The translations under genes were made by a program, and so were the position numbers. A stretch of DNA of 64,000 nt from Candidatus Poribacteria bacterium. GTDB lineage: Bacteria; Poribacteria; WGA-4E; WGA-3G. Below the pieces are notes generated by a model. The model worked only from the letters and a program-made list of their open reading frames with translations, was not told where the DNA came from and made no database searches. Numbering within the stretch: position 1 is the first letter of the stretch; the number at the start of each line of letters is the position of its first letter. The stretch lies in contig CBDBFU010000015.1 of assembly GCA_965205025.1 (NCBI GenBank), forward strand, positions 224,001 to 288,000, written 5' to 3'. Shown here piece by piece: positions 21,449 to 38,548 of this stretch.

Positions 21449-22738
21449 TTATTTATCAAAGCTTAATGGAACTTCTGGTGGGAAATAACACATCTTGGAC
21501 ATATCTGGAAAGATATGAGTTACATCTCTTCTATAAACATCCCCACTTAGTATGTCAACGATTCCTCCAAGATGCTCTGGGTATTCTGACAGAAAACGAG
21601 CAAAGCTGAATTCCTTTGTATAGAAGGCGTATACTAATTTCCTAAATGCTTCCATACCATTTACAAAAGTCTGTCCGAAACTCCCCAACTGATTTCCAGA
21701 AAAATCATTCTCTCTAAATGCCTCAACAATTACATCTGCAGCCATTTCACCGGATTTAAGTGCTAAGAATAAACCTGTCGAATATACTGGATCCAAGAAA
21801 CCAAATGCATCTCCGATAAGCAACCAATTCTGTCCTGAAATTCGACTCGCTCTATACGAGAAGTCTTTGGTTGTTTGAACAGGAAACAGTTGTTTAGCAC
21901 CGTCCAATCGTTCCTTTAATGGTTGGCACTTCACCAATTCTTCCTCGAAGATCTTTTGTGTGTCCAGTTTTCCATCTGAATCTCTTCGGTTTTGTAGAAG
22001 ATAATCTAATTCTCCTACAACCCCTACACTTGTCCGGTTGTATGGTAGTGGAATAGACCAAAACCATGAATCCTTTTCCTCTGTATGCAGTATAAGGGTT
22101 GCCCCTTCGTCAATTCCTGGATCTCGGTATCCACCTTCAAAATGTGTGAAAAGAGATGCTTTTTTCAGGTTAGGATCCACAGTATTTAGATTTAATTGTC
22201 TACCAATAAGAGATCGCTGTCCTGTAGAATCAACAATTACTGTGCCATGAATCGTCTGTTGTTGTGTTTCCTGAATGTTACCATTGACTGTCGTCTGTGT
22301 ATTAACACCAATTGCTTTATCTCCATCAAAAAGCACTTTTCTTACACTTACACCCCTTCGTACCTGAACACCTTTTTCAACGGCGTTATTTAATAACATC
22401 TGGTCGAATTCACTCCGCAAGACCTGCCATGTCACGGAACTCTCATGTGGATTTGTTTCAAAGAAGTAAAATGGATTCGTAGCTTTACCAGTCCGTGTGA
22501 AAAACTGAACACTATATTTCTGGGGAAAATGGCTCGCTCTTAGTTTCTCAAGCATTCCAAGACGTTTGAATGTCCAGTATGTTGAAGGAATCAGGGATTC
22601 ACCAATTTTAAACGATGGTTCAGATTCACGTTCCAAGAGCAGCACACGATATCCTTGTTGTGCTATAAGGGTTGCGGCAGTACTACCTGCGGGACCTCCA
22701 CCGATAATTATTGTATCATATGTTGAGTGCTGATTCAT
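21449..22738 (-). CDS. Flavin-dependent halogenase-like FAD oxidoreductase
   Basis: GGGPAG, KIGESL, FPQK (halogenase Lys position), WFWSIP (WxWxIP), GDAFGFLDPVYSTG. Confidence 0.82.
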   Translation of the reverse strand: MNQHSTYDTIIIGGGPAGSTAATLIAQQGYRVLLLERESEPSFKIGESLIPSTYWTFKRLGMLEKLRASHFPQKYSVQFFTRTGKATNPFYFFETNPHESSVTWQVLRSEFDQMLLNNAVEKGVQVRRGVSVRKVLFDGDKAIGVNTQTTVNGNIQETQQQTIHGTVIVDSTGQRSLIGRQLNLNTVDPNLKKASLFTHFEGGYRDPGIDEGATLILHTEEKDSWFWSIPLPYNRTSVGVVGELDYLLQNRRDSDGKLDTQKIFEEELVKCQPLKERLDGAKQLFPVQTTKDFSYRASRISGQNWLLIGDAFGFLDPVYSTGLFLALKSGEMAADVIVEAFRENDFSGNQLGSFGQTFVNGMEAFRKLVYAFYTKEFSFARFLSEYPEHLGGIVDILSGDVYRRDVTHIFPDMSKMCYFPPEVPLSFDK

Positions 22739-22772
22739 GGTAATTGTTGTAGTTACTATTAAATGTTATATT

Positions 22773-24017
22773 TTATATTCGTTCATCAGTAAATCGTCTT
22801 GATTTCAATTCATATCGTGGTAAAGTACCATTTGGTACTGTTTTAACAATTGTTCTTAATCCTAATTCATCTCGGATGGCTGCAGTGACCTTGGATATTG
22901 TTTCATCTGAGTTTGGATTAATCGTCTCAATTTGGATTTCAAGCTCATCAAATGTATCTCCAGAATAAGCACGAACAGCAAACTCACGAACATCTTGTAC
23001 CTTTAAGATGATATTTTCAATTGTTGCTGGATATACATTTAATCCTCGTATAATTATTGCGTTATCTAACCTTCCCACAACACCACCATCAAGGATACGA
23101 TGTTCACTTCCACAAGAACACTGTACTGATTTTAGTCTGACAAAATCTCCTGTCCTGTACCGTATTACTGGCATCCCAACCCGTCCTAAATTAGTAATGA
23201 CTAACTCTCCCTCATCTGCATGCTTGCCAGAATCTGGATCTATTACCTCACAAATAAATTCGTCCTCATTGAGATGCACTCCGTTTTGTGTTCTACACAT
23301 TACACCCCAGGCACCAACTTCGGTTGCACCAACATGGTCGTAAGCCTTTGCTCCCCATCCGTCTTCAATTCGTTGTTTTGTAGATTGTAGACTTGCCCCC
23401 GGTTCACCTGCATGGATCGTAACCCTTACCTTAGATTTAGTACTTAAATCCACACCTTCTTGTTTTGCCACTTCTGCCAGTCGTAAAGCATAGGTAGGTG
23501 TACATATGACCACTGTCACATCATTCGTAAGGATAGCACGTATACGTTGATCAGATGTCATCCCTCCATTTGCTATGGTGAATGTTCCAAGTTGTTGAGC
23601 GCCATGATATGCGCTCCAAAAACCAATAAAGGGTCCAAATGAGAAAGCAATCATTAACCTGTCAGAGGAGGTCACCCCTGCAGCATTATAAATATCACGC
23701 CAACATTTACCCCACCAATCCCAAGATTCTCTTGTATCTAACCAACGGATTGGTGAACCTGTTGTACCAGAGGTCTGATGTATGCAGGTATACTGTTCTT
23801 GTGGATAGGTTAAATTCGTACCGTATGGTGGATGGGAAACCTGATCTGTACTAAGTTCATCCTTCGTCGTAAATGGAAGATTCTGATAATCTGAAAGCGT
23901 TTGAATTTCATCAGGATTGGAAAAGCCAGAATCACCTAACTTCTTTTTATAGAAGTCATTTGACTTACAAACCGGTATTAACATTTCTCTCAACCGGTTT
24001 AATTGTATATCTATCAT
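22773..24017 (-). CDS. PaaK-like (phenylacetate-CoA ligase family) adenylating enzyme
   Basis: LPFTTK, HQTSGTTG, AGEPG, GATE, RYRTGD, GRLD, GLNVYP. Confidence 0.9.
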   Translation of the reverse strand: MIDIQLNRLREMLIPVCKSNDFYKKKLGDSGFSNPDEIQTLSDYQNLPFTTKDELSTDQVSHPPYGTNLTYPQEQYTCIHQTSGTTGSPIRWLDTRESWDWWGKCWRDIYNAAGVTSSDRLMIAFSFGPFIGFWSAYHGAQQLGTFTIANGGMTSDQRIRAILTNDVTVVICTPTYALRLAEVAKQEGVDLSTKSKVRVTIHAGEPGASLQSTKQRIEDGWGAKAYDHVGATEVGAWGVMCRTQNGVHLNEDEFICEVIDPDSGKHADEGELVITNLGRVGMPVIRYRTGDFVRLKSVQCSCGSEHRILDGGVVGRLDNAIIIRGLNVYPATIENIILKVQDVREFAVRAYSGDTFDELEIQIETINPNSDETISKVTAAIRDELGLRTIVKTVPNGTLPRYELKSRRFTDERI

Positions 24018-24059
24018 ATATCTATCAGATCCTTGCTTAGGATTCCAACCTGGTAAACA

Positions 24060-25400
24060 TTATGTATACCGTGTATTCTGGTATTCTGGAGCATAGAACG
24101 CTGGAAGAAGACCATCAACCTGGAGTAAACCCCGTTGGGTTAGTTGGATTTCATCTTGATCTGATTGAATTCGTAACATACCTTCGTTCTGTAGTTTCTC
24201 AAATTCCTCACTATAGAGTGTCAAGATATCCTCATCGAACTTAGATTTGAAATAGGATGGATTAATCTTACCAAGTTTAAGTTGTAAAATCATTTCTCGT
24301 GTGAGTTTTTCATCCTCTGTAGGTTTAAAAGCGCGATAGATGGGTAGTTCACCTTCTTCAAGAGTATTGAGATAGTCCCCCCAAGATGGTGCATTTTGAA
24401 AATGAATTCCGCTCAGATGTGAAAAAGATGCTACCCCCGTACCGATCATATCACTTCCTTGCCATACTGCATCACGATATACAAACTTACAAGGTTTGTC
24501 TTTTTTCAAAACCGTATAGGCACTTGATTGTTCATATCCGGCTTGAGCGAATTGCTCAAAAGCATATTGGTGCCATTCCCTTTTTAGTTTCCAATCAGCA
24601 ACAGGTAATGCATCTCCCCCGAGGATATCTTTTGAATAAACAGTATTAAAAGGCAGCTCAAGTTGATAAACAGTAATACTATCAGGATCAAGTTCTATAG
24701 TCTTTTGAACAGTATCCCGCCAACTTTCCCACGTTTCACCAATCATACCAGATATAAGGTCAATGTTAACCTGATCAAAGTCTAATTCCTTTATCCATGG
24801 ATCAATTCTGTACACCTCTTTTGAGAGATGTGCACGACCGTTTTCTTCGAGGATGTCGTCATTCAAGTTCTCAACACCGAGACTTAAACGGGTAACACCT
24901 ATGCCTTTTATAGCTTCTAATTTTTTTTGTGTCAACGTACCCGGTTCACATTCGAATGCAACTTCTTCGGCATCATCCCAAGGAAACACTTTCTTGACTC
25001 TTTCAACGAGTGTGTTTAGATGTTTTACACTGATGTATGATGGAGTACCACCACCGAAGTATACAAATCTCAATGGACGGTTGACTAATGCAGGTTGTCT
25101 GCCATATAGTTCGATTTCTTCAGCAAGAGCATTGAGATATGTATCTATTTCAGAGCTGTTTTTATCCGTATAAACTCGAAAATAACAGAATTTACAACGT
25201 TTACGGCAGAAAGGAATGTGTAGATATAGACCTAACGTTGCATCGTCCGATGGTTCTTCGTTTAATGCATTATATACATCCGGAACTGCTGATTCATTCC
25301 ATACAGAATAGGGAGGATAATTAGAAACAAAAACGCTCCCTACGGATGTCTTTTCAGAATCTATTCCTGCTGTCGCTGGTTCCGGCTTTGTTTGGTTCAT
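24060..25400 (-). CDS. HemN-like (class C) radical SAM protein
   Basis: YLHIPFCRKRCKFCY, YFGGGTPS, RLSLGV, NIDLI.G; HemN C-terminal domain. Confidence 0.9.
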   Translation of the reverse strand: MNQTKPEPATAGIDSEKTSVGSVFVSNYPPYSVWNESAVPDVYNALNEEPSDDATLGLYLHIPFCRKRCKFCYFRVYTDKNSSEIDTYLNALAEEIELYGRQPALVNRPLRFVYFGGGTPSYISVKHLNTLVERVKKVFPWDDAEEVAFECEPGTLTQKKLEAIKGIGVTRLSLGVENLNDDILEENGRAHLSKEVYRIDPWIKELDFDQVNIDLISGMIGETWESWRDTVQKTIELDPDSITVYQLELPFNTVYSKDILGGDALPVADWKLKREWHQYAFEQFAQAGYEQSSAYTVLKKDKPCKFVYRDAVWQGSDMIGTGVASFSHLSGIHFQNAPSWGDYLNTLEEGELPIYRAFKPTEDEKLTREMILQLKLGKINPSYFKSKFDEDILTLYSEEFEKLQNEGMLRIQSDQDEIQLTQRGLLQVDGLLPAFYAPEYQNTRYT

Positions 25401-25475
25401 TTCTATATTCCTTATAGTAAAATCAATTATACATACTATATATATGTATAGACTTAAATTATAAATCTATTTTAA

Positions 25476-26684
25476 TTATTTCTTTCCAAAACAGAAAAGT
25501 ATTCCATCCTCATTCCCAATGTAAATTCTACCATCAGACACACTCGGTGATGCGATAATAGATGAACCGGTTTCATATTCCCAAACAGACTCTCCTGAAG
25601 ATAAATCTAATGCAATAAATAATCCGCGAGTTGTACCGACAAATACGCGTTTTCCTACAACAATAGGAGAAGATTCAATACGCGATTTTGCTGTATAGGT
25701 CCAGATAGGATCACCCGTATTATGTGATAGTGCATGTACCATCTTATCACGTCCACCGATAATAACTTCATCTCCTGTGAGGGCAGCAGAAGCGATAAAA
25801 GGATATTTAAGATCTGGGTGTTGATATCGCCAGGTAATATCTCCTGCATCCAAAGACACACTTAGGATTTCACTGCCATAAGTACCACAGAAGACATGAT
25901 TATCTAATATTGCTGGACTTGCCCCCACATAAGTTCCAAGATTTACCATGTGTACTTGTGTTCCATCCGTGACATTAATTACACGAAGATAACCATCACA
26001 TCCTGTTGCAATTGCATAATTTTCTATAGTGGATGCATCATCAGTTTTATGGAGCCAAACACTGGGTGTTGCATGAACATATCCTTCAGTTTCAAATTTC
26101 CATATTAGATTACCATTATTGATGTCTAAACAGTATAAAAACCCATCATACGAACCGAATAACACCCGGTTATCTATGAAATTTGCTGAAGATACAATCT
26201 CACCCTCGGTGGTATACATCCATTTCTTTTCATGCGTGTTAATATCCACTGCATGAAATATACCTGTGTCATCTCCAAAGTAAATGACACCATCAGAAAT
26301 TGATGGGGATGACTTTATTGGTGCCTTGGCATTATAGTTCCATTTACTCTCTCCTGTCTGAGCATTTAGTGCATATAAATACCCATCTAATGCCCCAACA
26401 TATACAGTACCTTCATAGATAGTTGCAGTAGACTCTATCATGTCATCTACTTTAAATGTCCATAATAAATCAAGCTTATCGGGGAGTTGTGCCTTAACCA
26501 CTCCTGTAAGCTGCTGATTACCTCTGAAACTAACCCAATTACCAAAAGAAATCTGTATGTTTATAAAAAATAAGACCAAAATATAAGATAAGATCACTAT
26601 GATATATCGTATGATTTCTTTTAAATTGGTGAGTTTGATAGGTAAAAACTCAAAATACTTTTTCATATAATCTCTCAAAATCAT
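25476..26684 (-). CDS. PQQ-like (BamB/AfsK-type) beta-propeller protein
   Basis: WVSFRGN N-terminal motif; repeated SSP..../G..DG.LY.L...TG...W blades. Confidence 0.88.
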   Translation of the reverse strand: MILRDYMKKYFEFLPIKLTNLKEIIRYIIVILSYILVLFFINIQISFGNWVSFRGNQQLTGVVKAQLPDKLDLLWTFKVDDMIESTATIYEGTVYVGALDGYLYALNAQTGESKWNYNAKAPIKSSPSISDGVIYFGDDTGIFHAVDINTHEKKWMYTTEGEIVSSANFIDNRVLFGSYDGFLYCLDINNGNLIWKFETEGYVHATPSVWLHKTDDASTIENYAIATGCDGYLRVINVTDGTQVHMVNLGTYVGASPAILDNHVFCGTYGSEILSVSLDAGDITWRYQHPDLKYPFIASAALTGDEVIIGGRDKMVHALSHNTGDPIWTYTAKSRIESSPIVVGKRVFVGTTRGLFIALDLSSGESVWEYETGSSIIASPSVSDGRIYIGNEDGILFCFGKK

Positions 26685-27771
26685 CTATTCCCACAGGCCG
26701 TGGGTTAAACTGCGCTGTCCATTGAACCGATGCCTCCTTTGCTAAGTTAGCAAGGTCTGTTGACCTGATGGGATATTGGACAGAACACTCTTGTAGTGTG
26801 TTCGGTAAATCACTACATTCAATTAAAGACTCAATTCTATCAGCTAAATTCCCTTTAGAATAAAGTTCTTGATAGAAACCTCCAACGATTTGTTCATTAT
26901 ATCGTATAACATGCGGTAGCATTAGACTGACCGCGATACCATGTGTAATTCCATATCTTGCTGTTAATGGATTTGCACATGCATGTGCGGCACCAAGCAT
27001 AGAATTCTCTATTGCCAATCCAGCAAGATATGCACCAAATAACATCTTTCCACGCGCGTCAAGATGTTCTTCATCAATAGCTATTTGGAAATTAGATTCT
27101 AACATTTTCCACGCCTGTATTGAAAACATCTGGGAAAGCGGGTTACGTCTTGTTGAAACAAAACTTTCAACTGCGTGTGCTATGGCATCTATACCTGTGA
27201 TCGCTGCAACCAATTTAGGTAAGGTATCAGTCACAGTTGGATCTAAAATGACAGTGTCAAATTTTGCTTTTTTGTCTCCACAAGCCATTTTAATATGTGT
27301 ATCATCTTGTGCAATCAATGCATAAGATTGCGCCTCACTTCCAGTACCAATTGTTGTCGGTATACCTATTGAGGGAAGCATAGGTCTTGTAGCTTTGTTA
27401 GTTCCCCAATAGTCCTCCATTTCACCTCCATTTGTTAGAATGAAATTCGTTCCTTTTGCACAATCCATTGCACTTCCACCCCCGAGTCCAATAATTAGAT
27501 CAATTGGGTTGTTTTTTTGTGCAAATTGGACTGCCTTATAAACATGTTTTGTTGTTGGGTTCGGATCAACATCCGTGAAAACGGAACAGTGTATATTCTC
27601 GTTATTTAGTGCCGAATATGCTCTCTTCAGAATACCCGCTTCCTTGATCCCAGTATCAGTAATGATGAGCACACGACTACCACCCAATGTTATAGTGGCT
27701 TTTGCGAGTTTCTCAATACTGTTATCTCCAAATAAAACACGTTGTGCTAAATTAGAATCGAAGGATACCAT
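26650..27771 (-). CDS. Iron-containing alcohol dehydrogenase
   Basis: GGGSAMD, IPTT.GTGSE, GIDAIAHAVES, GAAHACA, HG. Confidence 0.92.
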   Translation of the reverse strand: MVSFDSNLAQRVLFGDNSIEKLAKATITLGGSRVLIITDTGIKEAGILKRAYSALNNENIHCSVFTDVDPNPTTKHVYKAVQFAQKNNPIDLIIGLGGGSAMDCAKGTNFILTNGGEMEDYWGTNKATRPMLPSIGIPTTIGTGSEAQSYALIAQDDTHIKMACGDKKAKFDTVILDPTVTDTLPKLVAAITGIDAIAHAVESFVSTRRNPLSQMFSIQAWKMLESNFQIAIDEEHLDARGKMLFGAYLAGLAIENSMLGAAHACANPLTARYGITHGIAVSLMLPHVIRYNEQIVGGFYQELYSKGNLADRIESLIECSDLPNTLQECSVQYPIRSTDLANLAKEASVQWTAQFNPRPVGIDDFERLYEKVF

Positions 27772-27810
27772 GTAAACTCTTTGAATAATTCCAAGATTTC
27801 AGTATTTTGT

Positions 27811-29307: not shown

Positions 29308-29391
29308 AACAAAGAAACCTTATGAATAAGAATTGTCCAAACTATAGTTATTTATGAAAAGCGCGATTAAATTGTTGTTTAATTAAAATCC

Positions 29392-30846: not shown

Positions 30847-30855
30847 AAAGAGTAT

Positions 30856-31560
30856 TTATGATTGACTTATCTGTGCAACCCATCCAGAGGATGCATCACA
30901 ATAGAGGAAATCTTCACCGTAAATAGATAGTCCGTGTGGTTCAGGATATTCTTCTGCCACCTCAATCTTATTAAGGATTTTCCCATCATTCAGATCAAGT
31001 TTGACGATTACCCGTTCAGAAGTATGGACAACCCAGAGTCCATCTTCTACGCGAACTGTTCCATGTGCTCTACCGTAAGGTAATGGTAAGGTGTGTTGAA
31101 TTGACCAGTCAGAAATTTTCACCTTATGGATTTCTTGGTTTTTTAGTGTTTGTACCCAGAGGTGTCCTTCATCGAAATTGTCATATTCGACTCCGTGTGT
31201 GCCACCCCCTTCTGGTACAGGAAAACGCTCCAATGTTTCACCCGTATTTGGATCTACTTGGAAAATCTCACCGTCCCCTGGTTTTGCATCAGTTTCTCGG
31301 ATTTCTCGCCACCGATCTCCTGAACCGTTGGCAGCTAACCAGAGTGTCCCATCACCATAAGCCATGCCGCTTGTATTTGAGGATTCGCTTGGAATATCTC
31401 TTATATGTTTTGGGACATGGTATTCGTGATCACATGTGATTTCTACTAACATGACTCTATCTGTGATTTGGTCGACTAACCATAAACCTTCAGTAGTGAC
31501 CTGTAACCCATTTGGTACAGCATAAGGTGAGCGAAAAACTTTCTCTATTTTTATTTCCAT
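30856..31560 (-). CDS. Hypothetical beta-propeller protein (NHL/glutaminyl-cyclase-like)
   Basis: Start MEIKIEK at 31560; repeats PNGL, TSGMAYGDGTLW, THGVEYD, AHG...LW, PHGL. Confidence 0.6.
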   Translation of the reverse strand: MEIKIEKVFRSPYAVPNGLQVTTEGLWLVDQITDRVMLVEITCDHEYHVPKHIRDIPSESSNTSGMAYGDGTLWLAANGSGDRWREIRETDAKPGDGEIFQVDPNTGETLERFPVPEGGGTHGVEYDNFDEGHLWVQTLKNQEIHKVKISDWSIQHTLPLPYGRAHGTVRVEDGLWVVHTSERVIVKLDLNDGKILNKIEVAEEYPEPHGLSIYGEDFLYCDASSGWVAQISQS

Positions 31561-31775
31561 GTTAAAATAATTCCTTTTCGTATAACTTCGGTATTCCTTC
31601 AAGGATAACGTCTCATCTAATAATGAGTAAATGAGAAATGGGTATGCCCGTATTATACTCCTTCCGACGCGAATCACCACCGAATCGTGTGTGGCATTTA
31701 TCAGGCTTGAGTTCTGTCTGAATCAGGGATTAGACAGATTACACATAGATTAAGGGCATATTTTAACAACTATCC

Positions 31776-31851
31776 ATAGACATTCCGTCCCTACGGGACT
31801 CGGTTAGTTAGATAATCCATTTTCTATAGACATTTCGTCCCTATGGGACTC
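31776..31851. repeat. Two tandem REP-like palindromic units, 50-bp period
   Basis: ATAGACATTYCGTCCCTAYGGGACTC at 31776-31801 and 31826-31851; core hairpin GTCCC-TAY-GGGAC. Confidence 0.8.
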
Positions 31852-31996
31852 AAACCAAAGAGTGATATTCAAAATTGATGTCCCTCCAAGCAATACCATT
31901 CTTTTCGATATGTGCAGTATATGTCTCATCATATACTGTATCTTCTATTTCAATAGTATGAATATTGTCCATAGTAATCTCCTGGGAACATGGATT

Positions 31997-33070
31997 TTAG
32001 TATACACCTACAACCACACTTTCCTGTAGTTCTGTGAGTAAACGTAGGTTTTCAACACCATCCCATGGATATTCAGGTATAGGTTTTGCGCGTTCTGCCT
32101 CATCCCTTTCAAGGAAACGCGGCACAAAGAATTCTTTTGTCAAAGTAGTCAGCATTACACGACCTGTTTCTCCATATTCAACTTTCTGATCTGGATTTTC
32201 AGGATTCACCAGTTCTATGACAGCACGTGGTTGTGGTGGATAGTAAACAATGGCATAGTTATCTGCAGGATCAAATGGTTTACATGTTGCCAATCCCATA
32301 AGTGTATTACCATAGGTCGGAATGAAGTCTATTCCAGGAACAAGTTCCTCACGTGCGAAACGATGAAACTGTGCGTCCATCTCAGTTCCACCACAAAAAA
32401 TCCCCTTTATACCAACTTTTTGTAAAGATATTTTTTCACACAATGCCTCAAGAAGTTTAGGAGTTGTAAAAAGACATTGGACATTATCATGTGCTTTGAG
32501 TACATTTAATGCTTGGGATATAACGTGGTTTTTATATGCATCTAATTCTTCATTCTTTCCATAACGAACAAGTTGGTTTACCCAACGCGGATCAAGATCA
32601 ACGAGAAAGCAGATTCCACCGCGATGTTGAGCAAGATGTTCGACCGCTAAACGTAGACGTCTTGGACCTGTGGGGCCTAACATCAACCAATCACTTCCCT
32701 TTGGAAAACTCTCATCAGAAAGTGTTTGACTAAAGATTTCATAGTCAATTTGAAAATCATTGACACTAATCCGTGATTTTGGAATTCCTGTAGATCCCCC
32801 AGTTTCAAAGACGTATACTGGATCGTTTTCATAGGCTTTCGGTACCCATCTTCGGATTGGACCACCACGAAGCCATTCGTCCTCAAAATGTCCAAGACAT
32901 TTTAGGTCATCATACCCACCAATCTCTTTACGTGGGTCAAAATCTAAGTTGTCTGCATATTCTAACCAGAATGGACATCCTGTTTCTGGACTAAAATGCC
33001 AGTCAACAATTTCGCGAACATGTTCGTCCAGTGTGGTACGTGCCTTTTTTATTTTTTCTGTAATCTTCAT
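31997..33070 (-). CDS. EhpF/EsmB1-like atypical ANL-superfamily adenylating enzyme
   Basis: WHFSPETGCPFWL, ETGGSTGIPK, PTGP, DLDPRWV, TTP, GGTE, VEYGETGRV, ERD and C-terminal VVGVY match, in order, the motifs I recall for EhpF. Confidence 0.8.
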   Translation of the reverse strand: MKITEKIKKARTTLDEHVREIVDWHFSPETGCPFWLEYADNLDFDPRKEIGGYDDLKCLGHFEDEWLRGGPIRRWVPKAYENDPVYVFETGGSTGIPKSRISVNDFQIDYEIFSQTLSDESFPKGSDWLMLGPTGPRRLRLAVEHLAQHRGGICFLVDLDPRWVNQLVRYGKNEELDAYKNHVISQALNVLKAHDNVQCLFTTPKLLEALCEKISLQKVGIKGIFCGGTEMDAQFHRFAREELVPGIDFIPTYGNTLMGLATCKPFDPADNYAIVYYPPQPRAVIELVNPENPDQKVEYGETGRVMLTTLTKEFFVPRFLERDEAERAKPIPEYPWDGVENLRLLTELQESVVVGVY

Positions 33071-33164
33071 CTATAAACTTATATAAATTAAATCCTTATC
33101 TCAAGCATAACCAATTAGGTTTTCATTTCTAATAGAGTCAATATTTAGTTAACTCTAAATCAAC

Positions 33165-33189
33165 GCCGAATGCATGTAATGCATTCGGC
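33165..33189. repeat. Intergenic palindrome (REP-like or terminator)
   Basis: GCCGAATGCAT-GTA-ATGCATTCGGC. Confidence 0.6.
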
Positions 33190-33262
33190 AGATTTCAGGG
33201 ATAATTCTATCAATAGGATTCAGTTAAAATTACCAATAATTTGTACTTAGAAATTAGTTAAT

Positions 33263-34786
33263 CTATTCAGCAATAGCGAACAATCGATTACGTGTTACGA
33301 TGTATAACACACCATCTTTGGCTACGGGTGTTGTATACACTGCACTCCCCATATTGATCTGATTTATTACTTCCTTTGTCTTACCTGTCTTTAAGATGAC
33401 TACATCCCCATCCTCAGTACCCAGGTAAACTTTCCCATCAACAACATAAGGTGATCCCCAGATAGCTGCGAAGGTATCATGTGTCCAGTATAGGTCTCCA
33501 GTTTTTACATCTAAACAGTAGAGAAATCCGCTCAGATCAGAAATGTAAAGTAGTCCTTCATGGATTGCAACTGTTGACATAGTGCGATTAAATTGCTCAT
33601 TTCCGAAGTGCCATACTGCTGCAGTTGAGGTAACATCACCTTTTTGAGAAGCATCAATACACCAAAGATGTCCGACGCCTTCACCATGCTCAGGATCTTG
33701 TCCGACTGCTAAGAAAACTTTATCATCAAATACAACAGGTGTAGAGATGATATTATTGCGTGTTCCACGACCGCCCAGTTCCCATTCAGAATCTTTCGGA
33801 TTGCAATCAAACTTCCAGATAATGTTACCAGTTTCAGGTTCAAAGGAATATACCCATCCATCACCACCAGGGATAATAACTTGTGGTACACCTTTTATTA
33901 CACCGTATGCAGGATTTGACCATTGACCGTGTAATATATTTTCCCCGGGGGAAGCATCTTCCCACACAAGTTCCCCTGTATTTTTATTCAAGGCAATAAA
34001 ACTGGGAGCATCAGGTACAGGAATATGGATATGTGTTTCATCTACGCCATTACTTGTCTCTAAAAACAAGAGATCGCCAACAGCAAGTGGTGAACAGGTT
34101 GCCAGGTTATGCGGAAAGACATCTAACTCATCCATCATATCATAAATCCAGATGATATCTCCATCAATATTAGTATTTTCTGATTCCTCAGTATAAGGAC
34201 CGTCATTTTCTCCATCAAGGAAACCTTCAGTATCAATACAAACCACTTCACATCGATTAGAGATATAGTAGAGTCTGTCCCCTTCAATATATGGCGTTGA
34301 ACAGATGCCTTGCAGTGGCCAATCATTAACCCTTCCTGCAGGTAGTTTAGTGTGAGTGATCTGCCATAAAAATTCACCATCGGTTTCATTAAACGCTACG
34401 ATATTCCCACGATCACCAGTGAGTTTTGGATTTAGCAGTGCCTCATTATTAGTTCCAACAAATACCTTTCCACCTATAATAAGTGGACCTGCATAACTCT
34501 GTGACCCGAGTTCTGCTGTCCATTTGATATTCTCGCCTGTTTCATAATTCCAAGTTGAGAGGATGTTTTTCTCGTCAGAAACCATATTACGACTTAGTGT
34601 GCCACCCCATAATGCTATCTCTTTCTCTTCTGCTGAATGAGCATCGGCCTGACTATTTTGTGGAGAAAAACTTATAATGAGACCAAATAAAAATACTATC
34701 ATGTATTTAACTGAATGAACTATATTCTTTATGTTAGTTGTAAATTGTGCGGTATTTCTTTTACCGCTTCTGAATTCTAAAATCAT
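33263..34786 (-). CDS. Secreted PQQ-like beta-propeller protein
   Basis: Signal peptide; WGGTLSRNMVS, NIKW.A.LGSQSY, GICSTP, DGENDGP loop, HGQWSNP, propeller blades. Confidence 0.85.
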   Translation of the reverse strand: MILEFRSGKRNTAQFTTNIKNIVHSVKYMIVFLFGLIISFSPQNSQADAHSAEEKEIALWGGTLSRNMVSDEKNILSTWNYETGENIKWTAELGSQSYAGPLIIGGKVFVGTNNEALLNPKLTGDRGNIVAFNETDGEFLWQITHTKLPAGRVNDWPLQGICSTPYIEGDRLYYISNRCEVVCIDTEGFLDGENDGPYTEESENTNIDGDIIWIYDMMDELDVFPHNLATCSPLAVGDLLFLETSNGVDETHIHIPVPDAPSFIALNKNTGELVWEDASPGENILHGQWSNPAYGVIKGVPQVIIPGGDGWVYSFEPETGNIIWKFDCNPKDSEWELGGRGTRNNIISTPVVFDDKVFLAVGQDPEHGEGVGHLWCIDASQKGDVTSTAAVWHFGNEQFNRTMSTVAIHEGLLYISDLSGFLYCLDVKTGDLYWTHDTFAAIWGSPYVVDGKVYLGTEDGDVVILKTGKTKEVINQINMGSAVYTTPVAKDGVLYIVTRNRLFAIAE

Positions 34787-34789
34787 TTA

Positions 34790-35743
34790 TCACCATACCT
34801 TTAGATTATCATAATAGATTTCGGAAACGGAATAAGCGTATATACCGGGACTTCCCTCTCTATTCGGCAAGGGGTCTTCGGTTTTAATCGTCCATTCATT
34901 GGGTTCATCGTCCCCTGTCCGCCAAACTTTTCCATAAATCAAAGCTTTATCGTCGTTTATTTCAACCTTCATTTTCATTGTATACCAGACATCGGTCTCC
35001 CATGAGAAGGGGATTGTTTTTGCCATCCGCAGATCAGACGCCCAAGACCGAATCTGCAGCCGTTGTTGTCTACCCTGCATATCTAATGTATATCGATTGG
35101 CTATTAACCCCATATCTGGCACTCTACGTTTATCTCTTGTTCCCATCACATCGACTTGTATCTGGTAGTCACTCATTTTAGGTGGACCGATATATACATT
35201 TGACTTATCTAATCCGCGTTGTACAGGTATTTTGACCAATACTTTGTTACCATCTTTCTCTTTTACAAAATACTTTCCAGTAGCACTGATCCAATGTGTG
35301 GGAACTTTATTGAGTTCGATATTTTCAAAATCTTCACTCCATGGTAAAGGTGGAATGACACGAATTCGTGCTTCTGCCTTCATTTCACCTGATTGGATGG
35401 AGACAGTTCCTGCTTGTGCTCCATGACTAATATTCGGAGTGAATATATTGTCTGTGAGACTACCCATTAACCCATTTAAACCCCACTCTACAGAGCCAAT
35501 TGCACTTGTCTGATTCCCGTTTTCATCATAACCGATAACTGTAAGTTCAACCGGTTCACCAGATGTTGTCGTTTCAGCAGGAGTAAGAAGTAGATCAACG
35601 ACTGGTTCTGTACTCAATTTTGTTACTACTATCTCTTTGCTTGCACATCCAATCACAAGAAAACTGATAGCTAAGGTAATGCACAGCAGAAAGGGTAATC
35701 TCACAAGATTCTTCTTACTGATTCCAAAGTTTATACTTTTCAT
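34790..35743 (-). CDS. Lipoprotein with Ig-like and jelly-roll (lectin/DUF1080-like) domains
   Basis: Lipobox LVIGC; beta-rich; PLPWSEDFE, WYTMKM.V, GKVW, GSPGIY, YYDNLKV; start overlaps the upstream stop (TAATG). Confidence 0.65.
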   Translation of the reverse strand: MKSINFGISKKNLVRLPFLLCITLAISFLVIGCASKEIVVTKLSTEPVVDLLLTPAETTTSGEPVELTVIGYDENGNQTSAIGSVEWGLNGLMGSLTDNIFTPNISHGAQAGTVSIQSGEMKAEARIRVIPPLPWSEDFENIELNKVPTHWISATGKYFVKEKDGNKVLVKIPVQRGLDKSNVYIGPPKMSDYQIQVDVMGTRDKRRVPDMGLIANRYTLDMQGRQQRLQIRSWASDLRMAKTIPFSWETDVWYTMKMKVEINDDKALIYGKVWRTGDDEPNEWTIKTEDPLPNREGSPGIYAYSVSEIYYDNLKVW

Positions 35744-37059
35744 TATTCTCTCCCTATGCAGTAGATATGCTCTTCCGTGGTGAAATAGATGCGTCCATCT
35801 GATATTGCTGGTGATCCGAAGATTTCAACATAGTGCTCATCTTCTTCTCGAGTGATTTCCTGTATATTGAGAGATTCACACTCGTCTGCACCGGGTTGTA
35901 GAATATGAAACTTCCCATTAACCTCTGTAACGAATAACTTTCCATCCGCCCAAACAGGTGAACCTTTACCAACTGTACCGATACTATGTTCCCATATAAC
36001 CTTGCCGGTATCAGCATTCAAACAATACATATTAGCAGAATTATCTACAACATATAGTTTTCCATCTTTAACGGTTGGGGATGCATATCCTACATTAACA
36101 GCATCATAACGCCATACCTCATGGGTTTTCGTAATATCTCCAGTTCCAGTTGCATCGATACAGACAACGCGTCCCATTTCAGTGCTATCAAAGTTTTCTT
36201 CACTATGTGTAGCATACACCTTTGTACCAGAAACTATAACAGAGGTATTGATTCCGCGTTTACTCAGTTTAAAACCCCATACCATTTCACCGGTAGTCTG
36301 TTTCATTGCATAGATACTACCATCAGCATTCCCACCGATGATAAGCATTTGACCGTTGATATCAACAACTACTGGTGTTGAGTAAGTTGTATCAAGGGGT
36401 CTGCCACCCGGTGTTGATACCCAGATGAGATCTCCTGATTTTTTATCAAATGCAAAATAGCGATGCCTTGGTATAGATTGATTCCCCCATCCTACATTTA
36501 GGTAACTAACAACCACAAGATTTCCAGCAATTATCGGTGTATGAATACGACCACCATAACCAGAAATGCGTCCATACTCTTCTGTGAGTGAACGGGACCA
36601 GACAATGTTACCATCTTTATCAAAACAGAAAAAGAGTCCTTGCACACCATGTATGTATATATTTCCTGTTTCGGGATCTCCTACAGGACTTGTCCATCCA
36701 ACCCTATTGAAAGTGATAGTGGTATGAAAGACATTAAACTGGTAATTCCAAATTTCATCGCCTGTTTTAGCATCAAAGCATGTAATACGTTCTTGTTGTG
36801 TTATGTCTTTACCAATACGTCCAATTACATAGACTCTGTCATTCAATATAACTGGTGTTGAACGACCAATAAAATCAGCTTTCCAGAGAAGGTTTTCCCC
36901 ATCTATAGACCAATTTGAAACAAGTCCAGTTTCTGATGATGTTCCATCTTGATTTGGACCTCTCCAACTTGGCCAATCGCTTGCATTGGCATATATTTGG
37001 GTAAATAGTATTAGAGAAAAAATAGATATCCGATATATAATCGGTTTTAGATTATGCAA
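35743..37059 (-). CDS. Secreted PQQ-like beta-propeller protein
   Basis: Signal peptide then DWPSWRGP; YSTP, YASP, GSP blade motifs. Confidence 0.88.
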   Translation of the reverse strand: MHNLKPIIYRISIFSLILFTQIYANASDWPSWRGPNQDGTSSETGLVSNWSIDGENLLWKADFIGRSTPVILNDRVYVIGRIGKDITQQERITCFDAKTGDEIWNYQFNVFHTTITFNRVGWTSPVGDPETGNIYIHGVQGLFFCFDKDGNIVWSRSLTEEYGRISGYGGRIHTPIIAGNLVVVSYLNVGWGNQSIPRHRYFAFDKKSGDLIWVSTPGGRPLDTTYSTPVVVDINGQMLIIGGNADGSIYAMKQTTGEMVWGFKLSKRGINTSVIVSGTKVYATHSEENFDSTEMGRVVCIDATGTGDITKTHEVWRYDAVNVGYASPTVKDGKLYVVDNSANMYCLNADTGKVIWEHSIGTVGKGSPVWADGKLFVTEVNGKFHILQPGADECESLNIQEITREEDEHYVEIFGSPAISDGRIYFTTEEHIYCIGRE

Positions 37060-38169: not shown

Positions 38170-38344
38170 ACTAATTTCTCCTTACATAATATCACGGAGT
38201 GAATAAATAAATGGGTATGTATTGGTGATTTCACTGATTTATAGTGGTTGATATATATAGTATGAATTGTAGCATAAACAAAAAGATTGTGCATATAGAA
38301 AATGGCTATGGGGTGTGTAAAGTTCAAACTCACGTTAGATGTAT

Positions 38345-38499: not shown

Positions 38500-38548
38500 T
38501 TTACTATAACTATTGCATGAGCGAAAGGCATCTTTGGTTTTCATCTGA

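What the first reader, a model, noticed from the sequence alone, without database searches (positions are those of the whole stretch)
21449..37059. Orphan biosynthetic cluster: EhpF/EhpG-like acid-reduction pair, Fe-ADH, HemN-like radical SAM, PaaK-like ligase, halogenase-like enzyme and three PQQ-type propellers
Seen: twelve co-oriented genes with tight or overlapping junctions. Order: propeller, lipoprotein, propeller, EhpF-like, [NHL propeller], EhpG-like, [sulfatase], Fe-ADH, propeller, radical SAM, PaaK-like, halogenase-like, followed by a TAXI receptor. Known: EhpF/EhpG (and EsmB1/B2) are proposed to adenylate and reduce a heteroaromatic carboxylate in griseoluteate/esmeraldin phenazine pathways. 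HemN-like class C enzymes methylate, cyclopropanate or decarboxylate. WxWxIP marks flavin halogenases. Inference: no phz core, PKS, NRPS or pqq genes are in the window, so this looks like a tailoring line (acid to aldehyde to alcohol, radical step, halogenation or oxidation, CoA/AMP activation) for an unknown aromatic molecule. One attractive hypothesis is a non-PQQ redox cofactor or ligand for the co-encoded 'WPxWRGP' beta-propellers. I know of no described function for this gene set.
Basis: partly seen in the sequence, partly recalled or inferred. Interest (0 to 1): 0.88.

Follow-up and report, generated by a model that had tools for sequence, protein, structure and literature searches.

The report
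Conserved orphan acid-reducing, halogenase and propeller genes
A sponge-symbiont (Poribacteria) genome carries a real, strongly conserved set of enzymes that probably reduces and decorates an unknown, probably aromatic, acid and is repeatedly linked to exported propeller proteins; its product and purpose are still unknown.

Summary
Twelve co-oriented minus-strand genes lie at 21449-37059 in exactly the stated order, followed by a TAXI receptor.

- The window comes from a Candidatus Poribacteria genome.
- The set is two separately syntenic modules. M1 runs propeller, lipoprotein, propeller, EhpF-like, ALDH-like. M2 runs Fe-ADH, propeller, rSAM, PaaK-like, halogenase, TAXI. They are adjacent here but lay 43 kb to 2.2 Mb apart in 5 of 5 other chromosomes checked.
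- Contigs outside the phylum mix members of both modules, so the modules are functionally linked.
- The NHL-like gene and the sulfatase are Poribacteria-only insertions.
- The EhpF-like enzyme is exceptionally conserved: 82-97% within the phylum and 66-78% in Acidobacteriota, KSB1 and Calditrichota. It is predicted to bind its ALDH-like partner.
- In Acidobacteriota the pair sits with a GT4 glycosyltransferase, a LolD/MacB-type ABC exporter and PQQ-fold propellers.
- No PhzA/B, PqqC, PKS or NRPS was found.

Best reading: a lineage-wide pathway that takes an acid through aldehyde to alcohol, tailors it, and feeds exported propeller proteins. The chemistry is inferred. A 2026 preprint catalogues similar "Halo_AMP" clusters without assigning a function.

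The parts
35743..37059 (-). g01: exported 8-bladed PQQ_2-type propeller (438 aa) with a signal peptide followed by WPSWRGP
   Evidence: Pfam PQQ_2 E 2.5e-35. Below the BamB and PQQ-dehydrogenase cut-offs. N-terminus read. Present in 51 of 51 full-flank Poribacteria loci. 48-53% identical orthologues in 6 metagenome loci outside the phylum.
34790..35743 (-). g02: lipoprotein (317 aa), probably Ig-like fold
   Evidence: No Pfam or NCBIfam family. Lipobox VIGC read by eye. Nearest ESM Atlas clusters are hypothetical proteins of Planctomycetota and Verrucomicrobiota, with Big_2-like features. Single copy. Present in 51 of 51 full-flank loci.
33263..34786 (-). g03: exported 8-bladed PQQ-fold propeller (507 aa) with many invariant polar loop residues
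   Evidence: Pfam PQQ_2. Alignment A2 has invariant H, D, E and W motifs such as GQDPEHGEG, FPHNLATxSP and HGxWSxP. AF2 model pLDDT 81. Foldseek best hits are BamB, then PQQ-ADHs and tetrathionate hydrolase. 58-62% identical in loci outside the phylum. Absent from 4 genomes that lack g04.
33164..33190 (-). terminator-like hairpin between g03 and g04 (12-bp stem)
   Evidence: Terminator-like sites in the region are not enriched over shuffles (11 found against a mean of 10.6), so this is only a hint that g01-g03 and g04 onward are separate transcripts.
31997..33070 (-). g04: EhpF-type truncated adenylating enzyme (357 aa, no ANL C-terminal domain)
   Evidence: E 9e-44 to PDB EhpF (3l2k, 3hgu), aligned end to end; ETGGSTGIPK aligns with ESGGTTGAPK. 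Single copy. 82-97% identity in 80 Poribacteria loci. 66-78% identity in other phyla. Predicted to bind g06.
30856..31680 (-). g05: small cytoplasmic propeller-like protein, inserted only in Poribacteria (probable start near 31560)
   Evidence: Sub-threshold Vgb_lyase and PQQ_2 hits. Present in 50 of 51 full-flank Poribacteria loci. Absent between g04 and g06 in metagenome loci, for example L093 and L095.
29392..30846 (-). g06: EhpG-type ALDH-fold reductase partner (484 aa)
   Evidence: Aldedh E 5e-16. 26% identity and E 2e-34 to Pantoea EhpG. Cys295 and Asn171 are invariant in 16 sequences. Lies within 3.5 kb downstream of g04 in 30 of 53 evaluable metagenome loci. Complex score 0.79 against a best control of 0.00.
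27811..29307 (-). g07: sulfatase without a signal peptide, a Poribacteria-only and facultative insertion
   Evidence: Sulfatase E 3e-45. CAPSR motif. Present in 38 of 51 full-flank loci. 15 tblastn hits (E<=1e-10, >=50% coverage) in the genome, counting itself. Absent between g06 and g08 outside the phylum.
26650..27771 (-). g08: iron-type alcohol dehydrogenase (373 aa), first gene of module 2
   Evidence: Fe-ADH plus ADH_Fe_C. Below every NCBIfam equivalog cut-off. Follows g06 directly in L093, L094, L095 and L118.
25476..26684 (-). g09: exported, regular BamB-like PQQ_2 propeller (402 aa)
   Evidence: Beta-prop_ACSF4 at 227.8 bits, over its cut-off of 133; PQQ_2 E 7e-38. N-terminal TM or signal segment. 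Stays with module 2 in 4 of 5 separated chromosomes.
24060..25400 (-). g10: HemN-like (class C type) radical SAM enzyme (446 aa)
   Evidence: Radical_SAM plus HemN_C. hemN 200.8 bits against a cut-off of 325. CRKRCKFC and GGGTP. The genome has ChdC/HemQ and no HemF, so g10 is not needed for haem. Clustered with g04, g06, g08 and g12 in L118.
22773..24017 (-). g11: PaaK/F390-synthetase-type ligase (414 aa)
   Evidence: AMP-binding_C_2 E 1.6e-15. PaaK equivalogs 217-234 bits against cut-offs of 646-700; FlxY and BagE/FevW also below cut-off. 45-49% identical orthologues (tblastn 45-48%; 49% for L086 by blastp) head the g01-g04 block in 6 of 28 evaluable metagenome loci.
21449..22738 (-). g12: flavin-dependent halogenase (429 aa) with all sequence motifs
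   Evidence: Trp_halogenase E 4e-28. PDB halogenases 8zop 1e-58, Mpy16-type 5buk 9e-52, PltA 1e-49, CndH-type 3e1t 5e-47. GGGPAG, Lys in FPQKYS aligned with the halogenase Lys, WFWSIP and GDAFGFLDP. Found in 159 of 176 Poribacteria genomes, one match in nearly all of them (two or three matches in 5 genomes).
20387..21367 (-). g13: TAXI-type TRAP solute-binding lipoprotein, which travels with module 2
   Evidence: TIGR02122 at 246 bits, over its cut-off of 84. Adjacent to g12 in 5 of 5 chromosomes where module 2 is separated from module 1.
37327..38169 (-). u1: secreted LamG/ConA-like protein, often upstream of g01 (loosely associated)
   Evidence: Laminin_G_3 E 2.7e-22. Present upstream in 30 of 51 full-flank Poribacteria loci. 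Not seen outside the phylum.

Best explanation
This is a real gene set conserved across the lineage. It consists of two modules.

Shown:
- Module 1 encodes three exported proteins: two PQQ-fold propellers and an Ig-like lipoprotein. It also encodes a cytoplasmic pair: an EhpF-type adenylating enzyme that lacks the usual C-terminal domain, and an EhpG-type ALDH-fold protein that keeps its catalytic Cys.
- Module 2 encodes an Fe-ADH, a third exported propeller, a HemN-like radical SAM enzyme, a PaaK-type ligase, a flavin halogenase with intact motifs, and a TAXI binding protein.

Inferred mechanism:
1. g04 adenylates a carboxylic acid, probably a planar or aromatic one.
2. g04 hands it within a g04-g06 complex to the Cys of g06, which reduces it to the aldehyde.
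3. g08 reduces the aldehyde to the alcohol.
4. g12 (halogenation), g10 (radical methylation or a related step) and g11 (a second carboxylate activation) decorate the same scaffold.
5. In relatives a GT4 glycosylates the product and a LolD/MacB-type ABC system moves it across the inner membrane.
6. The product is bound or processed by the exported propeller and lipoprotein set.

The set behaves as a core function of these bacteria. It does not behave as a strain-specific antibiotic cluster. The identity of the acid and of the product is unknown.
For: Domain and motif evidence:
-.

The g04-g06 pair:
- Adjacent in 30 of 53 evaluable loci outside the phylum.
- Predicted to bind: score 0.79, best of 3 controls 0.00. 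That mark was reached by 58 of 80 solved complexes and 2 of 110 mismatched pairs. The runs share at least 71% of contacts and the partner pLDDT is at least 88.
- The predicted interface uses g06 residues 22-24 and 42-53. These overlap invariant columns S22, S41-N44, G46 and D51.

Aldehyde as intermediate:
- Natural fusions exist of EhpF-like domains with a Zn-ADH (P0227) and with a class III aminotransferase (P0214, Streptomyces).

Link between the modules:
- Six metagenome loci read PaaK, propeller, lipoprotein, propeller, EhpF, ALDH, Fe-ADH.
- L118 reads EhpF, ALDH, Fe-ADH, rSAM, halogenase.
- g04, g03 and g12 are present together or absent together in the genomes tested. G062 and G063 lack all three, G064 of the same genus has all three. 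G005 and G016 lack all three. G001, G003 and G017 lack g04 and g12.

Link to export and propellers:
- In 53 metagenome loci of at least 5 kb, the neighbours of the EhpF-like gene are GT4 in 31, ALDH in 25, a LolD-like ATPase in 19, a PQQ_2 propeller in 17 and an FtsX/MacB permease in 14. They recur in a fixed order.
- g03 has many invariant polar loop residues.

Core character:
- g12 is in 159 of 176 Poribacteria genomes.
- g04 is the best-conserved gene of the set (median 88%) and is 81-90% identical across Acidobacteriota families.
Against: - No substrate, product or activity has been measured. 'Aromatic' rests only on the EhpF, PaaK and halogenase family precedents.
- In 23 of 53 evaluable metagenome loci no ALDH follows g04 within 3.5 kb. 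Some loci run EhpF to GT4 without it.
- g10 and g12 were seen outside Poribacteria in only 1 of 80 loci. The link of rSAM and halogenase to the acid-reducing pair outside the phylum is therefore thin.
- In 5 of 5 complete Poribacteria chromosomes checked, the modules are 43 kb to 2.2 Mb apart.
- The propellers next to the Acidobacteriota clusters are distant paralogues (22-28% to g01), not orthologues of g01 or g03. PQQ_2 propellers are common in such genomes.
- The GT4 orthologue of this genome is about 24 kb from the cluster, and the ABC/FtsX orthologues are on another contig.
- The closest solved halogenases act on carrier-protein-bound substrates (recalled). No carrier protein was seen in the cluster or among small ORFs around g04.
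- Related genomes are not independent samples.
Confidence: 0.42

Rival explanations
1. An ordinary secondary-metabolite cluster of the 'Halo_AMP' kind. It would make a small brominated or chlorinated aromatic or peptidic natural product that the symbiont releases, for example for sponge chemical defence. The propellers would be accessory or resistance proteins.
For: - The halogenase motifs are intact, and the best hits are biosynthetic halogenases.
- g11 is a PaaK/BagE/YtkN-type ligase, and the HemN-like rSAM is of a type known from natural-product pathways (the pathway roles are recalled).
- The preprint 10.64898/2026.08.03.742642 reports 840 halogenase plus AMP-binding clusters in sponge and seawater samples. 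It assigns 8% of gene-cluster families to Poribacteria and notes PQQ-like domains 'at high frequency', along with rSAM, GT, ABC and TonB genes. It found no MIBiG match (section 14 read in full).
Against: - No scaffold-forming enzyme (PKS, NRPS, phz) was found.
- g12 is present in 159 of 176 genomes at 58-94% identity.
- g04 is 66-90% identical across Poribacteria, Acidobacteriota, KSB1 and Calditrichota, including soil and sediment contigs. Such conservation and non-sponge range are unusual for a defence metabolite.
- Halogenase and rSAM are missing from 79 of 80 loci outside the phylum, while the reducing pair persists.
Confidence: 0.22
2. The enzymes make a non-PQQ prosthetic group or tightly bound ligand for the co-encoded PQQ-fold propellers. 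The compound would be made in the cytoplasm, exported, and loaded onto g03-type propellers, which would then act as periplasmic enzymes.
For: - PQQ-fold propellers lie next to the EhpF clade in three separate contexts: Poribacteria, the six-locus lineage, and Acidobacteriota.
- g03 is 58-62% identical across phyla, with invariant His, Asp, Glu and Trp in the loops that precede blade strands.
- No PqqC and no PqqE above cut-off in the genome.
- An ABC exporter sits between the enzymes and the propellers in Acidobacteriota.
- g03 and g04 are lost together.
Against: - There is no direct evidence of a ligand.
- The fold search ranks cofactor-less BamB first. It also finds tetrathionate hydrolase, an enzyme of this fold that I recall as cofactor-free.
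- g09 is a plain BamB-like repeat propeller.
- g01, g03 and g09 score far below the quinoprotein family cut-offs: 39-98 bits against 480.
- The Acidobacteriota propellers are only distant paralogues.
Confidence: 0.14
3. A catabolic or salvage route. An organic acid from the host or the environment is taken up through the TAXI-TRAP system and converted by the enzymes. The exported propellers, LamG proteins and sulfatase would be degradative.
For: - A TAXI binding protein travels with module 2 in 5 of 5 separated chromosomes.
- A sulfatase, LamG proteins and a second sulfatase lie nearby.
- Poribacteria are known as degraders of sulfated polysaccharides (recalled).
Against: - Reducing an acid at the cost of ATP and NAD(P)H is a biosynthetic step, not a typical catabolic one.
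- The halogenase has all the biosynthetic motifs.
- The sulfatase, LamG and TAXI genes are absent from the clusters outside the phylum. Those clusters instead carry a glycosyltransferase and an exporter.
Confidence: 0.1
4. Unrelated operons that merely lie side by side in this genome.
For: - Modules 1 and 2 are far apart in 5 of 5 other chromosomes checked.
- Two larger gaps and a terminator-like hairpin flank g04.
Against: - Members of both modules are clustered in different orders outside the phylum.
- g03, g04 and g12 share presence and absence within one genus.
- The order is colinear in 80 of 80 loci.
Confidence: 0.05

Closest known systems
EhpF/EhpG of the Pantoea agglomerans D-alanylgriseoluteic acid (phenazine) cluster
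   Same: - g04 aligns end to end with the EhpF crystal structures (E 9e-44). It shares the P-loop and the missing ANL C-terminal domain.
- g06 matches EhpG at E 2e-34 with the Cys aligned.
- EhpF and EhpG are adjacent in Pantoea and Proteus phenazine clusters (table passages of PMC11278526).
   Different: - Identity is only about 30-36% for g04 and 26% for g06.
- No PhzA/B was found in the genome.
- g04 belongs to a separate, far more conserved clade. Its next full-length relatives are at most 43% identical.
- The proposed role of EhpF/EhpG in reducing phenazine-1,6-dicarboxylate is recalled from Giddens 2002 and Bera 2010, which I did not read here.
'Halo_AMP' pseudoclass of sponge-microbiome gene clusters (bioRxiv 10.64898/2026.08.03.742642)
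   Same: - Defined by a flavin halogenase plus an AMP-binding enzyme.
- Reported as rich in PQQ-like domains, rSAM, GT, ABC and TonB genes.
- 8% of families are assigned to Poribacteria and 16% to Acidobacteriota.
- No MIBiG match and no known product (abstract, outline and section 14 read).
   Different: - Whether this very cluster is among their families cannot be seen.
- The preprint treats the clusters as host-specific natural-product BGCs.
- The data here show a phylum-wide core set. Its most conserved part, the EhpF/ALDH pair with propellers, also occurs without a halogenase in soil Acidobacteriota.
LuxC/LuxE fatty-acid reductase, and heterocyst-glycolipid logic (reduction to an alcohol, glycosylation, DevBCA MacB-type export)
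   Same: - A two-protein reduction of an acid to an aldehyde by an ANL-type activator and an ALDH-fold reductase.
- In Acidobacteriota, the pair is followed by a glycosyltransferase and a LolD/DevA-like ATPase with an FtsX/DevC-like permease.
   Different: - These analogies are recalled, not tested.
- The Pfam scans of g04 and g06 listed only AMP-binding and Aldedh, with no LuxE or LuxC family.
- The DevC and ADOP hits are far below cut-off.
Flavin halogenases acting on carrier-protein-bound substrates (PltA, Mpy16, Bmp2, CndH, ChlB4)
   Same: - E 1e-43 to 1e-52 to these structures (the best PDB match, 8zop at E 1e-58, is titled only 'Halogenase').
- GxGxxG, catalytic Lys, WxWxIP and GDAxxFxDP are all present.
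   Different: - No carrier protein is in the cluster.
- It is nearly universal in its phylum, one match in nearly all genomes.
- The substrate is unknown.
BamB, PQQ-dependent alcohol dehydrogenases and tetrathionate hydrolase (8-bladed PQQ-fold propellers)
   Same: The g03 model matches BamB (E 4e-21, TM 0.55-0.60 over the query), PQQ-ADHs and tetrathionate hydrolase. All three cluster propellers hit PQQ_2.
   Different: - They fall below the BamB equivalog cut-offs (59-156 bits against 285) and the quinoprotein cut-offs (39-98 against 480).
- No PQQ synthesis genes were found.
- g03 carries its own invariant polar motifs.

Membership tests
EhpF-type truncated ANL adenylating enzymes | Full-length similarity to EhpF | tested here: met
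   E 9e-44; query 15-357 aligns to chain 21-366, which is the chain's end.
EhpF-type truncated ANL adenylating enzymes | About 360 aa, without the ANL C-terminal domain | tested here: met
   357 aa. Pfam AMP-binding matches only the N-domain profile positions 255-373, and there is no AMP-binding_C hit. Both proteins end together in the alignment.
EhpF-type truncated ANL adenylating enzymes | Adjacent ALDH-fold (EhpG-type) partner | tested here: met
   g06 is one gene away here. It is directly adjacent in 30 of 53 evaluable metagenome loci. EhpG match E 2e-34. Complex score 0.79 against a best control of 0.00.
Phenazine (ehp/esm) tailoring pathway | A phenazine core operon (PhzA/B and others) in the genome | tested here: not met
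   No PF03284 match in the 95.5%-complete genome. The control genomes did not ring either, so sensitivity is unproven. g04 is single copy and sits in a non-phz context.
Flavin-dependent halogenases | GxGxxG, conserved Lys, WxWxIP and the GD...DP flavin motif | tested here: met
   GGGPAG at 13, K in FPQKYS aligned with the Lys of 8zop, 5buk, PltA and 3e1t, WFWSIP at 225, GDAFGFLDP at 309.
Flavin-dependent halogenases | Halogenating activity and its substrate | not testable with these tools
   Needs an enzyme assay. The CmlS, QhpG and LodB models all score below their cut-offs.
HemN-like (class C type) radical SAM enzymes | CxxxCxxC cluster motif, GGGTP, HemN_C domain | tested here: met
   CRKRCKFC at 65, GGGTP at 116. 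Radical_SAM plus HemN_C.
Coproporphyrinogen III oxidase HemN proper | Score over the equivalog cut-off | tested here: not met
   200.8 bits against a cut-off of 324.95. The genome has ChdC/HemQ and no HemF, so a HemN is probably not required (inference).
Phenylacetate-CoA ligase PaaK | Score over the equivalog cut-off | tested here: not met
   216.7 and 234.5 bits against cut-offs of 646 and 700. PaaK-like fold only.
PQQ-dependent dehydrogenases | Score over the family cut-off, and PQQ synthesis genes present | tested here: not met
   TIGR03075 at 39-98 bits against 480. No PqqC; PqqE-like hits are below cut-off.
BamB (outer-membrane assembly factor) | Score over the equivalog cut-off | tested here: not met
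   TIGR03300 at 59-156 bits against 285. The fold is BamB-like.
Halo_AMP pseudoclass (preprint) | A flavin halogenase and an AMP-binding enzyme in one cluster | tested here: met
   g12 together with g11 and g04. Definition taken from the abstract and section 14.

The most novel reading that the evidence does not exclude
The enzymes build a so-far unknown small organic prosthetic group or ligand. It would be a reduced (hydroxymethyl or formyl), possibly halogenated, methylated and glycosylated aromatic acid. It would be exported and loaded onto a dedicated family of PQQ-fold propellers (g03 type). Poribacteria, Acidobacteriota and other PQQ-less phyla would then have their own 'quinoprotein-like' periplasmic enzymes.
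Probability: 0.14. Interest if true: 0.9.

Novelty: new variant of a known kind. Interest (0 to 1): 0.62.

Why it matters
PQQ-fold propellers are abundant in Poribacteria, Planctomycetota, Verrucomicrobiota and Acidobacteriota, many of which lack PQQ synthesis. Their roles are largely unknown.

This work links a very strongly conserved acid-reducing enzyme pair to such propellers in three lineages. In Poribacteria it also links the pair to a nearly universal halogenase. Two consequences follow:
- It redefines a catalogued orphan 'natural-product' cluster as a probable core function.
- Because close orthologues occur in Acidobacteriota families that have cultured members (recalled), it offers a route to test by genetics what the pathway and the propellers do.

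If the product turns out to be a cofactor or an envelope component, it would be new biochemistry. If it is a halogenated metabolite, it would identify a major, phylum-wide source of organohalogens in sponges.

Tried and rejected
- **RNA evidence:** The look-up of sequencing runs listed no RNA holder for 27100-37059. Read laying was therefore not run, and nothing can be said about expression.
- **Small ORFs (at least 20 aa) around g04** were listed to look for a carrier protein or precursor peptide. None looked convincing, and their conservation was not tested.
- **Promoter and terminator scan:** counts were no higher than in shuffles. Only one strong hairpin was noted.
- **g10 as the housekeeping haem enzyme:** made unlikely by ChdC/HemQ being present, no HemF, and g10 scoring below the hemN cut-off.
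- **g12 as a QhpG/LodB-type protein-tryptophan hydroxylase:** rejected. Real halogenases match far better (1e-58 against 7e-4 for the peptidyl tryptophan dihydroxylase structure), and the halogenase motifs are intact.
- **Extra genes beside the clusters outside the phylum:** Pfam gave only unrelated or family-less proteins, namely HtrA-like protease, glycerate kinase, DAO and a phosphodiesterase.
- **Literature:**
  - Searches for EhpF/EhpG, arylcarboxylate reductase/EsmB1/griseoluteic acid, Poribacteria + halogenase, and Poribacteria + PQQ found no functional study of this gene set.
  - PMC6644159 (one passage) and PMC7042410 (two passages) added nothing specific.
  - PMC3909097 (one passage) says only that many poribacterial PQQ-repeat proteins carry signal peptides or TM helices.
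  - Bayer et al. 2013 was seen only as a citation.
- **Not testable here:**
  - A MIBiG comparison could not be run.
  - The preprint's supplementary tables are closed.
  - A genome-wide synteny survey outside Poribacteria was impossible, because the single genome-contig scan returned only Poribacteria.

Full report
**What is there.** The window is a piece of a Candidatus Poribacteria genome. It corresponds to G000:C15:224001-288000, in an assembly of 5.66 Mb and 95.5% completeness.

Pfam and NCBIfam give the following:
- g01 is a PQQ_2 propeller.
- g02 has no family. It has a lipobox read by eye, and ESM Atlas features resemble Ig-like proteins.
- g03 is a PQQ_2 propeller.
- g04 is a weak AMP-binding hit.
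- g05 has only sub-threshold Vgb_lyase and PQQ_2 hits.
- g06 is an Aldedh-fold protein.
- g07 is a sulfatase.
- g08 is an Fe-ADH.
- g09 is a PQQ_2 / Beta-prop_ACSF4 propeller.
- g10 has Radical_SAM plus HemN_C.
- g11 is PaaK-like.
- g12 is Trp_halogenase-like.
- g13 is a TAXI protein.

g04 matches the EhpF crystal structures end to end (E 9e-44). g06 matches the EhpG of a Pantoea plasmid ehp cluster (26% identity, E 2e-34; locus). This is much better than its match to ordinary aldehyde dehydrogenases (E 2e-10 at best).

g12 has GGGPAG, the conserved Lys, WFWSIP and GDAFGFLDP. g10 has CRKRCKFC and GGGTP.

Junctions are mostly tight, but gaps of 192 and 316 bp flank g04. g01, g03 and g09 start with signal or TM segments, and g02 is a lipoprotein. 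The enzymes have no such segments.

Only g01 has WPxWRGP; the motif occurs 4 times in the genome. 'NHL' is not confirmed for g05.

**More than chance.** The genome gave 31 PQQ_2 matches, which I estimate fall in roughly 18 genes when matches sharing an open frame are counted once. Three of those genes in 15.6 kb is already unlikely.

Of 157 relatives found, the best 80 were kept, and all 80 are Poribacteria loci. Among them the order is colinear in 80 of 80. I counted a gene as present at 50% identity or more over 60% of its length or more. In the 51 loci with full 10-kb flanks:

| Gene | Present (of 51) |
|---|---|
| g01-g04 | 51 |
| g05 | 50 |
| g06 | 50 |
| g07 | 38 |
| g08 | 14 |
| g09 | 10 |
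| g10 | 8 |
| g11 | 6 |
| g12 | 2 |
| g13 | 1 |

The fall-off beyond g07 is partly because the flank ends and partly real, as the next section shows.

**Two modules.** In five complete chromosomes, g12 lies 43 kb, 296 kb, 309 kb, 1.9 Mb and 2.2 Mb from g04. Around g12 the block g08-g09-g10-g11-g12-g13 is intact in 4 of 5. In the fifth, g10 to g13 are seen.

The set is therefore M1 (g01-g06, with g07 facultative) and M2 (g08-g13), which happen to abut in this genome and in some relatives.

**Phyletic pattern.** g12 is found in 159 of 176 Poribacteria genomes, and in 125 of 133 high-quality ones, at 58-94% identity, with one match in nearly all of them (two or three in 5 genomes).
- Five good genomes without g12 (G001, G003, G005, G016, G017) also lack g04.
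- In one genus, G064 has g03, g04 and g12, while G062 and G063 lack all three.
- G005 and G016 also lack g03.
- G134 and G043 have g04, but g12 was not found. Both are fragmented assemblies.

Related genomes are not independent, so these are consistent patterns, not statistics.

**Outside the phylum.** g04 belongs to a very tight clade.
- 8000 of 8000 scored candidates passed E 1e-5. The listed 120 are 76-97% identical and include proteins named from Calditrichaeota and KSB1.
- In the 50%-identity library the best full-length representative is 66% identical. The next full-length relatives are at most 43%.
- A second search from a soil contig shows 81-90% identity among proteins named from Bryobacteraceae, Pyrinomonadaceae, Blastocatellia and other Acidobacteriota.
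- Within Poribacteria, g04 is the best-conserved gene of the set (median 88%).

Eighty metagenome loci were kept of the 559 found. They were examined by tblastn and by clustering of ORFs.
- g06 lies within 3.5 kb downstream of g04 in 30 of 53 evaluable loci. g05 is never between them.
- Six loci (L086, L092, L093, L095, L096, L098) begin PaaK-like, propeller, lipoprotein, propeller, EhpF-like, with 45-62% identity to the window's proteins. The ALDH-like gene follows in L086, L093 and L095, and the Fe-ADH follows it in L093 and L095.
- L118 reads EhpF, ALDH, Fe-ADH, rSAM, halogenase.
- g08 follows g06 directly, with no sulfatase between them, in L093, L094, L095 and L118.

In the 53 loci of at least 5 kb, the commonest neighbour families and their Pfam or NCBIfam identities are:

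| Neighbour | Loci (of 53) |
|---|---|
| GT4 glycosyltransferase | 31 |
| ALDH-like protein | 25 |
| LolD-like ABC ATPase | 19 |
| PQQ_2 propeller | 17 |
| duplicated FtsX/MacB-type permease | 14 |
| TonB-type outer-membrane barrel | 8 |

They often stand in the order EhpF, ALDH, GT4, ATPase, x, permease, propeller, propeller.

Facts against a simple picture:
- 23 of 53 loci lack an ALDH right after g04. Some of these have a second EhpF paralogue with an ALDH a few kb on, and some run EhpF to GT4.
- g10 and g12 were seen in only 1 of 80 loci.
- The Acidobacteriota propellers are only 22-28% identical to g01.

In the window's own genome, the GT4 orthologue (46% identity) lies at C15:220344-221627, about 24 kb from the cluster. 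The ABC/FtsX orthologues are on contig C20.

**Mechanistic clues.**
- *Predicted complex.* g04 and g06 are predicted to bind. The score is 0.79 and the best of 3 controls is 0.00. That mark was reached by 58 of 80 solved complexes and 2 of 110 mismatched pairs. The runs agree in at least 71% of contacts and the partner pLDDT is at least 88. This supports binding but does not show it. I know of no solved EhpF-EhpG complex (recalled), so a pass from memory seems unlikely.
- *Interface.* It uses the N-terminal stretch of g06 (residues 22-24, 42-53). This overlaps invariant columns of the family alignment. Cys295 and Asn171 of g06 are invariant as well.
- *Fusions.* Natural fusions join EhpF-like domains to a Zn-ADH and to a class III aminotransferase. 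These fit an aldehyde product that is then reduced or transaminated. Here g08 would do the reduction.
- *The g03 propeller.* It is 58-62% identical across phyla. It has many invariant His, Asp, Glu, Trp and Cys residues in the loops that precede blade strands. Its model (pLDDT 81) is an 8-bladed PQQ fold. The nearest structures are BamB, then PQQ alcohol dehydrogenases and tetrathionate hydrolase. The fold search cannot tell a scaffold from an enzyme. The conserved polar loops suggest a specific binding or catalytic face (inference).
- *Haem.* g10 is not needed for haem synthesis. The genome has a ChdC/HemQ homologue and no HemF, and g10 is below the hemN cut-off.

**What it is not.**
- No PhzA/B, no PqqC and no PqqE above cut-off were found in the genome. 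The control genomes did not ring for PhzA/B or PqqC, so sensitivity is unproven.
- The largest other ORFs of the window are UPF0182, an Omp85/PD40/peptidase protein, QueG, PheA, DsbD, a sulfatase, a PglZ protein and cytochrome bd. None is a PKS or NRPS.
- All NCBIfam equivalog models (PaaK, hemN, BamB, quinoproteins, CmlS, QhpG, ErcA and others) score below their cut-offs.

**Literature.** The preprint 10.64898/2026.08.03.742642 was read in abstract, outline and section 14. It defines a 'Halo_AMP' pseudoclass of halogenase plus AMP-binding clusters in sponge microbiomes.
- It assigns 8% of families to Poribacteria and 16% to Acidobacteriota.
- It found no MIBiG match and proposes small brominated natural products.

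My four literature searches found no paper that gives a function for this gene set.

**Reading.**
- *Best supported (about 0.4).* A lineage-wide pathway reduces a probably aromatic carboxylic acid through the aldehyde to the alcohol (g04/g06, then g08). It decorates the molecule (g12, g10, g11). In relatives it glycosylates and exports it. The exported propeller and lipoprotein proteins bind or process the product.
- *Rival, about 0.2.* An ordinary halogenated natural-product cluster.
- *Rival, about 0.14.* A true prosthetic group for the propellers.
- *Rival, about 0.1.* A catabolic or salvage route fed by the TAXI system.
- *Rival, about 0.05.* Mere juxtaposition of unrelated operons.

The steps that are shown are gene content, motifs, synteny and phyletic pattern. 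The predicted complex is model support only. All chemistry is inferred.

**Verdict.**
- The set is two modules, not one cluster.
- It has core rather than accessory character.
- It extends to Acidobacteriota.
- It is linked to a GT4 and an ABC exporter.

It is a new variant of a known kind: an EhpF/EhpG-type acid reductase within a catalogued but unexplained class of halogenase plus AMP-binding clusters. Interest is moderate to high, because the function is open and now testable in cultured relatives.

Noticed in passing
window 37327-40559 (minus strand): Three tandem secreted LamG/ConA-like (Laminin_G_3) genes lie upstream of g01. The last two are 77% identical paralogues. The first (u1) is conserved upstream of g01 in 30 of 51 full-flank Poribacteria loci.
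   Followed up: partly
G000:C15:325026-330213 (about 40 kb beyond the window end): A PqqE-like (SPASM-type) radical SAM gene (123 bits, below the cut-off of 381) lies about 3 kb from another PQQ_2 propeller that is 26% identical to g01. This is a second propeller and radical-SAM neighbourhood in the same contig.
   Followed up: no
L112, L115, L136, L144 (Acidobacteriota-type metagenome loci): Two EhpF-clade paralogues lie 2.4-5 kb apart (2.4 kb in L136, 3.1 kb in L115, 4-5 kb in L112 and L144). The first is about 68-70% identical to g04 and is followed by the GT4 and a 192-aa protein with no family. The second is about 60-61% identical and, in L112 and L144, is followed by a more divergent ALDH-like gene at 45%.
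   Followed up: partly
P0214 and its cluster (Streptomyces); P0227: Natural fusion proteins exist: a class III aminotransferase plus an EhpF-like domain (824 aa, several Streptomyces), and a Zn-ADH plus an EhpF-like domain (725 aa). NCBI names some Streptomyces stand-alone homologues 'arylcarboxylate reductase'. One of these sits next to a type I PKS.
   Followed up: partly
G000:C15:220344-221627 (L163 8329-9618, minus strand): This is the 46%-identical orthologue of the GT4 that accompanies the EhpF clade in 31 of 53 metagenome loci. It lies 2.4 kb before the window start, next to a sodium:solute symporter and the end of a TRAP DctM permease that runs into the window's first bases.
   Followed up: partly
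window 52340-55252 (minus strand): A 970-aa protein combines Peptidase_MA_2, PD40/WD40-like propeller repeats and a C-terminal Omp85 barrel domain. This is an unusual architecture.
   Followed up: no
window 12419-18943 (plus strand): A second sulfatase, an FAD_binding_4 oxidase, a PglZ-domain protein and a DsbD-type thiol:disulfide interchange protein stand in a row on the strand opposite the cluster. A TPR protein follows at 18958-20028.
   Followed up: no
window 47615-48679 and 46328-47464 (minus strand): A bifunctional chorismate mutase/prephenate dehydratase (PheA type) and QueG lie about 10 kb from the cluster. PheA supplies aromatic keto-acids, but a link to the cluster was not examined.
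   Followed up: no
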